A stretch of 64,000 nt of DNA from Phoronis australis (GCA_002633005.1 NMRA01000001.1:3269695-3333694); one strand, 5' to 3'. Numbered from the stretch's first letter, positions 5,036-10,100 are shown. Notes: generated by a model from the letters alone, not told the origin. Made by a program: numbers and translations.

Positions 5036-5311
5036 ATGGCGTCCGAAAAAATGTGCGTCACCACGGAAGACGCCGAACTAAAAGCAAACGGCTACATCGT
5101 CGGGTCAACGCTTGGCGAAGGATCTTACGCTAAAGTCAAATCTGCGTTCGATGAAAAACACAACCGAAGAGTGGCTATTAAGATCATAAGCAGAAAAAAA
5201 GCGCCAAAGGATTTTCAAAATAGATTTCTTCCTCGAGAATTAGAAGTGATGAAGTTGCTCAATCACCCTAACATCATTAAACTTCACGAGGTTCTTGAAC
5301 TCGGAGGAAAG
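5036..5311 (+). CDS. TSSK-like kinase, first coding exon copy A (N-lobe: Gly-rich loop, VAIK lysine, alphaC)
   Basis: aaaATGG start; [33 protein letters not shown]; phase-0 donor AAG|GTAAAC. No kinase exon seen between it and copy B. Confidence 0.8.
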
Positions 5312-5608
5312 GTAAACATTTGTTACCCACATCCCGAGCTCATAAAAAATCAGAAGTCACGGGGCATTTTAGAAGACATCGCTTAATGTTGCATTCAACC
5401 AACCGTGCGTGATAATCACCTTTTGTTTATTTCAACAAGGTCATCGATGATACTTTTCAACAAACAATACCACCTAGACCGGAAAGAAAAATGAAAACAG
5501 GGGTCCGTTTTCTTGCTTTTTTTAATCGTGCGCTCGGTCATAACTCAGTCAAAAATACGTTTATAACCTGTGTCCAGTAGTTATATGACAACGACCTTAG
5601 CGCGACTA

Positions 5609-5740
5609 CACGTACGGATTTAGATGGGGCCAAAGGGGGCCATGGCCCCCCTAAAATTTTCCCAGATTCCTTCCTGCCGGCAAAATCCTGGCTAATACTC
5701 TGCCCTGCCCCCCTAACTAAAAATCCTTGATCCGCCCCTG
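5609..5740. mobile_element. GC-rich MITE remnant (CAGGGGCGGATC...GATCCGCCCCTG type)
   Basis: Right end aaaatccttgatccgcccctg resembles 9644-9663; left end degenerate. Confidence 0.55.
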
Positions 5741-7189
5741 ACGACCATTGATGACACGGTCCACAGAGGGGAAAAACTTTGGTCTCACTTCAACTCATTT
5801 TTATACTTGATGTGTGACCTTTCAGTGGTCACTTTAAGACCGAAGCACAAAACGCATGGAAAACCGAAACCTTCAAAACAAAACGTCATGATTATTGATC
5901 AGGCGCAAAATAGGGCTCAATTTGTATGTTACTAAGTTTTGTCGTGAATTGATGTGTTACTAAACAATGTCCTCTCATAAGAGTAATTTGTGATGTATGT
6001 GTTTATAAAACTGCATATCAATAATAAATACCTAGTGAGTAGCGAGAGGAAGCTGCAATCAACGTTTTCCGGTGGACGCGTTCAGTACAGCGCAGCATAA
6101 AATACTAAAATGCCTTACCGATAATGAAACAGTAAAACAGAAAAATGTGCTTAAAATATGATAAAGCGGTAAAAAATGACCAAACGTGTCGTCCTTGCGG
6201 GCACTAAAAATACCGCAAGGACGACATGTCTATTCGCTTTAATACATGTTATGTCGGTTTATCGTCTCTTACTGTCTTTTTACATTTCAATGCAAGAACG
6301 ACAACAAGTCAATAATTTCAAAATATAAATATTCATTAATGTTGAGCTTCTTCAGTAAATGTAACGAAAGACTAAAATTCTGTACAACTTGTGGGGTTTT
6401 CACAAACGTACATTTAATGTAATTTTCGTAACAGCATCCTAGTAAAAGTTGATAAATTCAAATTTTATAATTTCTCCTGAATTTAGGTTTAAACTGGAAA
6501 TACTCTTCTACAATCTGGACCAACTTCTGAGAAAACAAAATTTGTATGAATTTGCCTCACCACTCAATTTAAGTGTCGAGATGATCAGCTCTGGTACCTG
6601 TGTTATATCTTTGTCTGTCAGACGATTTGTTTTCTACCAGATTTAATGCTAATGTCTGAATTTTTTAATTTTGTCTAGACACAGATGGTCATAACGAAAT
6701 ACTCCTTTTGCCACAAATAGCAACAAACTGTAATAAAACATCCTCTCATAATTGTTTCGCGTACACCGACGTAATTTGGGTATTGTACAAAACATGGGGT
6801 GATCATGCACGTTAAACTCTTGCAACGAACAGCTTTATTCACCTTTAACAGATAAATAATGGTGAAAAACAAAATCTTTGAATTAACTTAAAAATATGCT
6901 TTAAGTTATCTTTGCCGAAGGGACAGTCTTAAAACTATTATTTTGTTAATTGATATTTATTCTAACACGTCGTTTGGGAGTAGTTTATTAAAGATTACGT
7001 AACTAGTCAGAAATGAAAAGCTGTCCCATTATTTCGGTTCGCTTGCGATGTCTTCTGTTATGTCAGTGACACGTCACCATGAACACATGAGAATGTTCCA
7101 CCTCAATTTCTCGCTGGGTTCGAATTCAGTTTTCTAGCCCAGCAAATGCAATTTTCAAACTTCACGGCTCTTGACAACTAACCGTCAAA

Positions 7190-10100
7190 ATGGCCGCCAA
7201 GAAATTGGAGCGCATGTGCATTACGACGGATGATGCCGACTTGAAAAAAGCTGGTTACGTTGTTGGCTCTACACTCGGGGAAGGATCGTACGCCAAAGTC
7301 AAGTCCGCCTTTAGCGAACATCTGAACAAGACCATCGCTATAAAAATCATTAATAGGAAAAAAGTGCCGAAAGATTTTCAAAATAAGTTTTTGCCGAGAG
7401 AACTATCTGTTCTAAAAATGTTAAAACATCCAAATATAGTTGAGGCGTACGAGGTTTTACCAATTGGTGACAAGGTGAGGAACCGTCATGCCATGCCTTC
7501 GATTTTAGGGAACAAGACGTATTGTACATGATCAGGATTTGCACCCCATTTCCTTTAAACAAGAGGAGAGCAAATTCAATTCACTCCAACATGGCAATTT
7601 TTGTGAACATATGTTTGTCATTCAAAAAATTAAGACACCATTTAGTTGGTCATAAGAAATGTGCAAATTTTCTGAGTACTGAGGGTAATAGATCTATTTA
7701 CTCGCAAGTGGCTTTACAAGTCACGTTTCCTTTATCAACGTTTTTGCAGGTGTATATTGTAATGGAAATGGCTGGCCACGGCGATCTCTTGGAATACATC
7801 AAATTGCGAGGTGCCTTACCCGAAGAAAAGGCGAAAACTATGTTTTTGCAACTTGTCGATGGAATAGAATACCTGCACAGCTTAAGCGTAGTTCACAGGT
7901 TAGTTGTTTTGAACTGAACGATAAATTGTTTGTTAGGCGAAAAAGCACGGTTGGGTTTGGTCTGTACCCTGTCTCAGTGTGCCTTGGCACTGGCCTGCAT
8001 CAATTTCAGATGTTTTGAACAATTTCACGCAAGCAAGGTTTCAAGCGCCGTAGTATGTTAGGAATAATGACGCCTAGCAGGCACGAAATAGCCTCCCTCT
8101 GGCACGAGTAGATCAATTTCACTTTTTATCAACTCAATTCTATTTTTCAGTAAGTGGAATTTACAGAAATACATCATTAGGGCACCAATGCAATCACAGA
8201 CATGACCATCATAACTTTTTCCATCGACTACTGTAATTGTAGTTCCCCCTTTTTTAATGGCTGGATCCGTCGTAAGGATCAACTTTTATTACATCTGAGA
8301 TGATTTAGCAAGTGGTTATTCGAAAAAAAAGCTCGTCCCCGGGTGGGCTTGAACCACCAACCTTTCGGTTAACAGCCGAACGCGCTAACCGATTGCGCCA
8401 CGGAGACCTGGCTGCCTGACACAAGTATTATTTATTATCTAAATAACGGCTACTGAAAAGTCACGTGATTACGCGGAGCTGCTTTTGTTTGGCTCGAGCT
8501 GGCGTGCGTTCATTAACGCTAGGACCTACTAGTCAAAGTCACTTGTACTTATTCAAAATACACGGCAATGTCTCGCGTGATTTTGCGAAGACTTGCTTTT
8601 TAGCGAGGTCCTAGCGTTACTGAACGGGAGGCTGAATAGCGTTGTCAGTGGTGTTCTGAAAAGCTTCGAATGAAGTTAAGATAACTATGGTGGCCCGAAA
8701 GTATCATCGCTATTTTAGTTTATTAATTTTTTTATTTTCCCTTTTCCACTTAGGATGAAATATTTCAACCTAGGTGGAAATTATTTCAACCTAGCTGGAA
8801 ATTATTTTCACCCAGGTGGAAACTATTTCCACCCGGGTGGAAATTATTTCACCCGGGTGGAAATTATTTTCACCCGGGTGAAATAATTTCCACCTGGGTG
8901 AAAATAATTTCCACCTAGGTTGAAAAAATTTCCACCCGGGTGAAAATAATTTCCACCTAGGTTGAAATAGTTTCCACCTGGGTGAAAATAGTTTGGCCAC
9001 CCAGGTGAAAATAGTTTCCACCCAGGTGAAAATAGTTTCCACCCATGTGAAAATAGTTTCGAACCAGGTGAAAATAGTTTCCACCTAGGTTGAATTATTT
9101 CCACCTAGGTGGAAAATGAAAAATGAAAAAATATTTAAACAAAAGTAGCGATGATACTTTCGGGCCACCGTATCATAACATGTTACTGATAGGCAAACTT
9201 CATAATTGGTGCATGGGTATTAATAGATAGATGTAAACAAGTCGTCTTCCCTGTCGGCGACCCGGCTTGGACCCTGCGGCTTTGAAACATCATGCTGCCG
9301 GTCTGATTCAGTGCTAGAACGTAACTTACGGTGCGTAAGCGCTACGTTCAAATGCCAAATGGTGGTTGGCTGCGCTTACGTGCGCCCCAGTACAGGCTAC
9401 GCTCCACTACAGCACTGATGGCACTAGACAGTGGCGGATTTAGGGAGGGGGGGCGCAACTTGACCAGGGGGGTGAATAAACAATGCATAGGCCTTGACCA
9501 AACCCCGTTTACGGTTTTTTTTAGTCAAAAGGCCCGCAAACCCAAAAATTCGCCGACCCCTGCATCCCTACATTTTAGGCTGGGCGCGCACATCTGCCGA
9601 AATTCTGGTTATTCCTGTGCCCTAGCCCCCCCCCCCTAACTCAAAATCCTGGATCCGCCCCTGATTGATTTGTGAACTAGCCCTGGAGAGGTCTTAACCA
9701 GTTGCAGATCGGATACTGTATGAGGGGGGTTTAGCTAGGCTTCGCGAGAATCCGAGGCGCGTAGCGCCGAGCAGAGGGGAAGTCGGGGGGTTTCTCCCCT
9801 GGCTGTAAGATTTTTTTTTTGGTTTTTAGTAGCTGATTTTGTTTTCCTGGTGACATCTTTTTAAAAATCTTATTTTCGATCCTGTCCCGATCGGCCTAGG
9901 CCGGTTGAACCCACTGAACCCCCCCGTGAGATCCGCCTCTTTCATGACACGAGTATGGCTCGCTCAACACCGGAGACGATTGTGCACCCGAGACATTAGT
10001 ACTGCCAATCATCAGTTTTCACCGCCAGAAGCCCTCTGCATGCTCACCAGTCGGCTGCAAATTTCACTTCTTCGAAACTCGGGAACCCGTTGAATGGCAA

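What the first reader, a model, noticed from the sequence alone, without database searches (positions are those of the whole stretch)
5036..7474. TSSK kinase with two interchangeable N-lobe first exons
Seen: two intact first exons (5036-5311 and 7190-7474), each with an aaaATGG start and a phase-0 donor at the same codon (K|V), but only one set of downstream exons. By-eye alignment gives about 61/87 identical residues with many silent codon changes and no stops or frameshifts. Known: this exon encodes the Gly-rich ATP loop, catalytic Lys and alphaC, and mammalian TSSK1/TSSK2 are separate intronless paralogs. Inference: an old, selectively maintained exon duplication makes two kinases with different N-lobes on one C-lobe through alternative promoters, achieving paralog-like diversity inside a single gene.
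Basis: partly seen in the sequence, partly recalled or inferred. Interest (0 to 1): 0.75.

Follow-up and report, generated by a model that had tools for sequence, protein, structure and literature searches.

The report
Sperm kinase with two starting exons
An invertebrate relative of the mammalian sperm kinases TSSK1/2 carries two old, intact copies of its first exon, and RNA reads show each copy starting its own transcript and splicing onto the same downstream exon, so one gene likely makes two kinases with different ATP-binding front ends, a known kind of gene trick seen here in a further family.

Summary
Real and expressed. Exons 1A (5036-5311) and 1B (7190-7474) are intact, 61/87 residues identical, saturated at silent sites (pS 0.84, pN 0.20), and both keep 22 of 22 near-invariant family positions. 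In 2 of 4 RNA runs both junctions are read (5311>7750: 144 and 117 reads; 7474>7750: 84 and 56), each exon has its own 5' end, no 1A>1B joint is listed, and exon 2 shows one sequence, which argues strongly against a collapsed paralog. The gene is the four-exon lophotrochozoan Tssk1/2 (PMC6905558) with exon 1 doubled; the copies are sisters, so the duplication is lineage-specific. Promoter A is head-to-head with a TOGARAM1-like gene. Correction: beta5, gatekeeper and hinge are shared, so the swap is beta1-beta4 plus alphaC, not the whole N-lobe. Whether the two proteins differ in function is untested, and no second species with the pair was found. The kind is known (39 human N-terminal tandem-exon swaps; FYN for kinases); this scan noted a similar MAK-kinase case on other DNA (e1-7500181, unchecked). 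New member of a known kind.

The parts
4925..5311 (+). First exon 1A: 5' UTR from about 4925, coding 5036-5311 (92 aa: Gly-rich loop, Lys49, alphaC Glu68, beta4)
   Evidence: 5' ends pile at 4925 (49 and 25 molecules) and joint 5311>7750 with 144 and 117 reads; translation
7078..7474 (+). First exon 1B: 5' UTR from about 7078-7088, coding 7190-7474 (95 aa)
   Evidence: 5' ends at 7088 (11 and 13 molecules) and 7078 (6), zero depth 5810-7019, joint 7474>7750 with 84 and 56 reads; translation
7750..7898 (+). Shared exon 2 (149 nt: beta5, gatekeeper, hinge, alphaD-alphaE, to HR of HRD)
   Evidence: both joints end here; same 149-nt length as abalone exon 2 (PMC6905558)
11072..11276 (+). Shared exon 3 (205 nt: catalytic loop, DFG, activation loop, APE, alphaF)
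   Evidence: loose read ends behind 7898 (245 and 223 reads, agreement 1.0 and 0.99) match its first letters; AG/GT and open frame
11802..12038 (+). Shared exon 4, coding part to the TAA stop; isoforms 288 aa (A) and 291 aa (B)
4860..4924 (.). Short gap between the divergent 5' ends of 1A and the TOGARAM1-like gene (likely bidirectional promoter; left edge approximate)
   Evidence: opposite-strand reads in bins 4721-4962 joined by CT..AC joints to the minus-strand gene
4768..4860 (-). First leader exon of the TOGARAM1/FAM179B-like gene (upper end approximate)
   Evidence: joint 3566/4768 with 23 and 18 reads
3435..3566 (-). Second leader exon of the TOGARAM1-like gene
   Evidence: joints with 23/18 and 9/5 reads
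205..2133 (-). Large coding exon of the TOGARAM1/FAM179B-like neighbour
   Evidence: ORF; PDB 5dn7 FAM179B E 6.4e-74; TOG/HEAT Pfam hits

Best explanation
This is one Tssk1/2-type kinase gene with two duplicated first exons, each transcribed from its own start and spliced to the same exon 2, so it likely yields two full-length, probably active kinases that share the gatekeeper, hinge and whole C-lobe and differ in beta1-beta4 and alphaC. Shown: both transcripts, both junctions, no 1A-1B joint, purifying selection on both copies, sister relationship of the copies. The choice is made by promoter, not by mutually exclusive splicing: exon 1B lies inside the first intron of transcript A and is skipped because no acceptor is used in front of it. 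Inferred: translation of both; male-germ-cell role (from homologs); the Gly-rich loop is identical (17 residues in a row) while the 26 differences sit in the beta2-beta3 loop, alphaC and beta4 and include the positions that align to PKA RS3, Sh1 and RS4 (A Met72/Ile81/Leu83, B Leu75/Val84/Ala86), so the isoforms are predicted to differ modestly in alphaC positioning, activation threshold or N-lobe partners rather than in substrate motif, which is read mostly by the shared C-lobe (established kinase knowledge).
For: Junctions, 5' ends and empty intron; exon 2 with no other letters at >=10% and a single exon 3 continuation; pS 0.84, pN 0.196, dN 0.23; 22 of 22 columns conserved in >=95% of 246 homologs kept in both copies, differences at less conserved columns (0.56 vs 0.76, p 3e-4); 1A+1B one clade, 96/82; a constant offset maps PKA K72, E91, M120, E121 onto K49, E68, M97, E98 (numbering from PMC3797032 and PMC11616992); RS4-to-Ala leaves PKA active (PMC3797032 passage); four-exon structure with 149-nt exon 2 is the lophotrochozoan Tssk1/2 norm.
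Against: Runs X1 and X2 come from one study and share a 5030 variant at about 45%, so they may not be independent. The A share is the same in both (63%, 68%; Fisher p 0.40), so no tissue or stage split is shown. No second species with the exon pair was found. Both 5' UTRs hold upstream ATGs, one in A opening a 45-codon frame that overlaps the main start, which could lower translation. The bootstrap of the N-lobe tree had not settled, and the 112-row quick tree gave no starred group for the pair.
Confidence: 0.8

Rival explanations
1. Same architecture, but the two proteins are functionally equivalent; both exons are kept only because each comes with a needed promoter (dosage or timing), and the 26 differences are tolerated drift.
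For: Differences fall at variable columns; at most of them one copy or the other simply keeps the family consensus; identity of 70% is what orthologs from different bivalve orders show (Mytilus-Ostrea 72%, Mytilus-Pecten 69%); RS3/RS4 changes hardly affect PKA; A is tied to a head-to-head promoter.
Against: B carries residues seen in at most 1 of 246 homologs at five positions, among them Ala at RS4 and Pro in beta4, and A at three; both isoforms are present together at similar ratios in two runs, which gives no sign of a promoter division of labour.
Confidence: 0.4
2. Origin rival: the state arose from a whole-gene tandem duplication after which the upstream copy lost exons 2-4 and was spliced onto the downstream copy, not from duplication of exon 1 alone.
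Against: No remnant of exons 2-4 in 5312-7189, though an old remnant would be unrecognisable; the Lingula pair is its own clade (100/97) and does not group with 1A or 1B. A faint match of the two 5' UTRs (14 of 500 shuffles as good) fits either origin.
Confidence: 0.3
3. Assembly artefact: two complete tandem paralogs with the upstream copy's exons 2-4 collapsed.
For: No DNA reads or second assembly were available to check 5312-7189 directly.
Against: RNA reads join 1A directly to the exon 2 at 7750 with up to 75 letters on the shorter side; no second letter at >=10% anywhere in exon 2; reads leaving exon 2 agree 0.99-1.0 on one exon 3. Paralogs saturated at silent sites in exon 1 would not share an identical exon 2.
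Confidence: 0.02
4. One copy is a transcribed but decaying or untranslated relic.
For: Upstream ATGs in both leaders; rare residues in B.
Against: Open frames, intact donors and 22 of 22 invariant positions despite saturated silent sites; both copies abundantly spliced.
Confidence: 0.04

Closest known systems
Lophotrochozoan four-exon Tssk1/2 (abalone TSSK1-like, PMC6905558; scallop Tssk1/2, PMC8042308)
   Same: Same family and exon plan: exon 2 is 149 nt in both, exon 3 205 vs 208 nt; 62-76% C-lobe identity to named lophotrochozoan and hemichordate orthologs.
   Different: Those genes are described with a single first exon, and invertebrates with a single Tssk1/2 (passages); here exon 1 is doubled and both copies are used.
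N-terminal tandem exon duplication-derived substitutions / variable first exons (GCNT2, UGT1, protocadherins, PRKG1; PMC8373072, PMC1885805)
   Same: Duplicated 5' coding exons with their own promoters spliced to constant exons; in UGT1 the variable exon is the N-terminal part of an enzyme (abstract).
   Different: Two copies, not an array; invertebrate. Among the 39 human N-terminal events (all rows seen) the only gene I recognise as a protein kinase is PRKG1, whose swapped 104 residues lie far before the catalytic domain; none swaps a kinase N-lobe.
FYN tandem exons (FynB/FynT; PMC9741552)
   Same: [quoted passage not shown]
   Different: FYN is an internal, mutually exclusive splice of 55 residues ending in the Gly-rich loop region; here the choice is by promoter, covers 92-95 residues through alphaC and beta4, and the Gly-rich loop itself is identical.
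Mammalian TSSK1 and TSSK2 (PMC7401350, PMC6905558)
   Same: Two TSSK1/2-type kinases in one organism.
   Different: Separate intronless genes that differ over the whole length; the exons here are sisters to each other, not 1A=TSSK1 and 1B=TSSK2 (one search contains vertebrate TSSK1-type rows only as outgroup).

Membership tests
TSSK1/2 subfamily | Best sequence matches are TSSK1/2-like kinases; intact catalytic motifs | tested here: met
   Named hits are mostly TSSK1/2-like (some named TSSK3-like or hypothetical); K49, E68, HRD141, DFG161, APE184; nearest solved structure of close homolog P0003 is TSSK6, E 1.7e-70, ahead of AMPK/MARK
TSSK1/2 subfamily | Four-exon lophotrochozoan gene plan | tested here: met
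   149-nt exon 2, 205-nt exon 3 against 149 and 208 in abalone
TSSK1/2 subfamily | Testis / spermatid-restricted expression | tested here: inconclusive
   High in X1, X2; no reads in X3, where the neighbour gene has depth 0.3-1.8: restricted, but tissues are not shown
TSSK1/2 subfamily | Orthology rather than paralogy to TSSK3/4/5/6/7 by tree | not tested
   Trees held no dedicated TSSK3-7 outgroups
N-terminal tandem exon substitution (variable first exons) | Homologous 5' coding exons in tandem | tested here: met
   61/87 identical; sisters in tree
N-terminal tandem exon substitution (variable first exons) | Each has its own transcript start and splices to the same constant exon; not co-included | tested here: met
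   5' ends 4925 and 7078/7088, two joints to 7750, no 1A>1B joint listed at the 3-read threshold; 5' ends are from ordinary RNA-seq, not CAGE
N-terminal tandem exon substitution (variable first exons) | Both isoforms translated | not testable with these tools
   Only indirect: purifying selection
N-terminal tandem exon substitution (variable first exons) | Conserved across species | tested here: inconclusive
   No other N-divergent/C-identical pair among 8000 scored pairs of 128 sequences; no homolog above 67% to either exon among 246; close relatives are evidently not in the results
Mutually exclusive internal exons (FYN type) | Both exons have acceptors and share an upstream exon | tested here: not met
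   No joint into either exon from upstream; each begins at its own 5' end

The most novel reading that the evidence does not exclude
An ancient, phylum-wide in-gene substitute for the TSSK1/TSSK2 split: isoform A is wired to the ciliary/flagellar programme through a promoter shared with TOGARAM1, isoform B to a separate spermatid promoter, and the swap rewires the N-lobe half of the regulatory spine (RS3, Sh1, RS4) so that one C-lobe gets two different on-switches, giving a natural N-lobe swap experiment for kinase regulation.
Probability: 0.2. Interest if true: 0.65.

Novelty: new member of a known kind. Interest (0 to 1): 0.42.

Why it matters
It is a verified natural chimera series: two N-lobe fronts, about as far apart as orthologs of different bivalve orders, on an identical gatekeeper, hinge and C-lobe. 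That makes the contribution of alphaC, beta4 and the beta2-beta3 loop to TSSK activation and localisation directly testable, in a family pursued as a male-contraceptive target (PMC7401350). It also corrects the picture of one Tssk1/2 product in invertebrates (PMC8042308) and is the sort of locus that annotation would call one gene plus a fragment. The mechanism itself is textbook, and earlier notes of this scan list many tandem-exon cases in this same genome (unchecked), so surprise is moderate.

Tried and rejected
No whole genome is held, so synteny, other Tssk copies and DNA reads could not be checked. One search listed no RNA holder by index; the four runs came by species label, and X4 (contigs) and X3 gave no TSSK reads. 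My first gene model had exon 3 off by one base, corrected; only one search is used for the C-lobe remnant search. Three homolog searches (45, best 120 of 1730, best 120 of 207 listed) found no close relative; amphioxus isoforms X1-X3 have identical N-lobes (3 of 3 pairs compared); Mya P0032/P0034 are identical in the N-lobe. Cluster look-ups of 10 short or unnamed homologs named only one. The organism is not placed: the C-lobe tree (51 rows, 50 chosen from 126 full-length homologs) puts it near Tubulanus and Watersipora without starred support. N-lobe trees used 38 of 126 and the 110 most similar of 246 homologs. Intron starts after 1A and 1B are not alike (401 of 500 shuffles as good). No TATA or X-box match in either promoter with recalled patterns. 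ESM Atlas gave only generic kinase clusters. A structure job for exon 1B had not finished; structural positions rest on motif offsets, not on a model. Literature searches listed no paper on duplicated first exons in a TSSK or on a TOGARAM1-TSSK head-to-head pair; I saw only listings for most of these and the library lacks most subscription papers.

Full report
Observation. The two stretches translate to 92 and 95 residues without stops. Each starts at aaaATGG and ends on a Lys codon before GT; exon 2 begins at 7750 with Val. Identity over the last 87 codons is 61 residues and 172 of 261 bases. The corrected model is 1A 5036-5311 or 1B 7190-7474, then 7750-7898, 11072-11276 and 11802-12038, all with AG/GT ends, giving open frames of 288 and 291 residues. 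tblastn finds no further kinase piece in the window, none at E<=1 between the two first exons or upstream.

Expression. Four runs carrying the same species label were laid (listing); about a fifth of each raw run was read. In X1 and X2 the joint 5311>7750 has 144 and 117 reads (57 and 50 starts) and 7474>7750 has 84 and 56 (42 and 35 starts), both GT..AG. Reads are strand-consistent with a plus-strand RNA. Molecule ends pile at 4925 (49, 25) and at 7088 (11, 13) and 7078 (6); depth is zero at 5326-5567 and 5810-7019, the reads at 5568-5809 being a dispersed repeat with unrelated loose ends. No 1A>1B joint is listed (threshold 3 reads). No second letter at >=10% is listed in exon 2, and the 245 and 223 reads that leave exon 2 agree 1.0 and 0.99 on the first letters of exon 3. 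X3 and X4 have no TSSK reads; X3 does have low depth on the neighbour gene, so expression is sample-restricted, but tissues are not shown. X1 and X2 are from one study and share a variant at 5030, so they may not be independent. A makes up 63% and 68% of the two junctions (Fisher p 0.40).

Selection and age. Nei-Gojobori counts give pS 0.84 (saturated, dS undefined), pN 0.196, dN 0.23; 17 of 23 four-fold sites differ. Neutral simulation cannot give an open frame with 61/87 identity at such divergence. Against 246 homologs both copies keep 22 of 22 columns conserved at >=95%, and differences lie at less conserved columns. The 70% N-lobe identity equals that between Mytilus and Ostrea (72%) or Pecten (69%) orthologs and is lower than sheep-coelacanth (85%), which suggests an old event, with the caveat of unequal rates. 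In a 40-row N-lobe tree 1A and 1B are sisters (96/82, bootstrap not settled); in a 112-row quick tree they are nearest to each other without a starred branch. The duplication is thus lineage-specific relative to the sampled animals.

Family and context. Named hits are mostly TSSK1/2-like proteins of annelids, molluscs, a nemertean, a bryozoan, a brachiopod and hemichordates. Abalone TSSK1-like has four coding exons of 303, 149, 208 and 420 nt, a plan shared by molluscs and a brachiopod (PMC6905558, passages); scallop has one four-exon Tssk1/2 and the authors describe a single member in invertebrates (PMC8042308, passages). Our gene is that plan with exon 1 doubled. The host is probably a lophotrochozoan, but the tree does not place it. 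Minus-strand reads just upstream of 4925 splice through 4768/3566 and 3435/2587 towards a large ORF that matches FAM179B/TOGARAM1 (5dn7, E 6e-74), so promoter A is head-to-head with it. Lingula has two complete paralogs, an independent solution by whole-gene duplication.

What is swapped. With PKA numbering from PMC3797032 and PMC11616992 (passages), a constant offset maps K72, E91, M120 and E121 to K49, E68, M97 and E98 of isoform A. So exon 1 carries beta1-beta4 and alphaC; beta5, the shell residue Sh3, the gatekeeper and the hinge are shared. Residues 22-38 including the Gly-rich loop are identical. RS3, Sh1 and RS4 all differ (A Met72, Ile81, Leu83; B Leu75, Val84, Ala86); Ala at RS4 occurs in 1 of 246 homologs. 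In PKA, RS4-to-Ala keeps activity and Sh1 touches the adenine ring, so B is predicted active and any difference subtle. This mapping is by sequence; no model was obtained.

Mechanism, shown versus inferred. Shown: two transcript starts, two splice joints to one exon 2, purifying selection, sister exons. Inferred: both proteins are made (about 0.85), act in male germ cells (by homology; PMC7401350 passages), and differ biochemically (about 0.5). The main rival is equivalence with retention for promoter reasons; origin by exon-only or whole-gene duplication is open; a collapsed assembly is effectively excluded.

Comparison with the known. Duplicated 5' coding exons with alternative promoters are an established class: 39 human N-terminal events (PMC8373072, passages and all 39 supplement rows), UGT1/GCNT2/protocadherin clusters (PMC1885805, abstract). 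PRKG1 is the only kinase I recognise among the 39 and swaps a region before the catalytic domain. FYN swaps the linker and start of the kinase domain by internal splicing (PMC9741552, passages). Searches listed no TSSK case (listings only; limited library). This scan's notes hold a MAK/ICK kinase with a duplicated N-lobe exon in another genome, without RNA support, and many tandem-exon cases in this genome (39 notes fit the words, 8 shown); these are unchecked.

Verdict. Observation confirmed, interpretation supported with a narrower swapped region and untested functional difference. New member of a known kind; interest 0.42.

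Noticed in passing
window 4768-4925 and 205-3566 (-): TOGARAM1/FAM179B-like gene starts head-to-head within about 100 bases of the 1A start, through two leader exons; it is about 20-fold lower in depth than TSSK in X1/X2 and faintly present in X3.
   Followed up: partly
window 8334-8407 (-): tRNA-Asn(GTT) gene inside TSSK intron 2.
   Followed up: no
window 8689-9171: 21-bp tandem array, 17.9 copies (8743-9115), flanked by what look by eye like inverted ends: a MITE-like insert in intron 2.
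   Followed up: no
window 5620-5745: Dispersed repeat in the intron between 1A and 1B; attracts reads from many other loci on both strands in all four runs.
   Followed up: partly
window 4934, 4996, 7079-7146: Upstream ATGs in both leaders: in A a 10-codon frame and a 45-codon out-of-frame uORF overlapping the main start; in B four short uORFs. Possible translational delay, as is common for spermatid mRNAs (recalled).
   Followed up: no
window 4883 and 7072: A CGTCA (CRE half-site, recalled motif) lies just upstream of both 5' ends; the two 5' UTRs also align faintly (14 of 500 shuffles as good). Weak.
   Followed up: partly
window 5030: A>T variant in the 1A leader at about 45% of reads in both X1 and X2.
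   Followed up: no
window 13470-14090: Long inverted repeat seen by eye downstream of the gene; not run through a repeat finder.
   Followed up: no
window 46153-61861 (-): Large multi-exon membrane-protein gene with scavenger-receptor-like and repeat-rich exons; resembles bark beetle/anakonda from memory, untested.
   Followed up: no
   Followed up: partly
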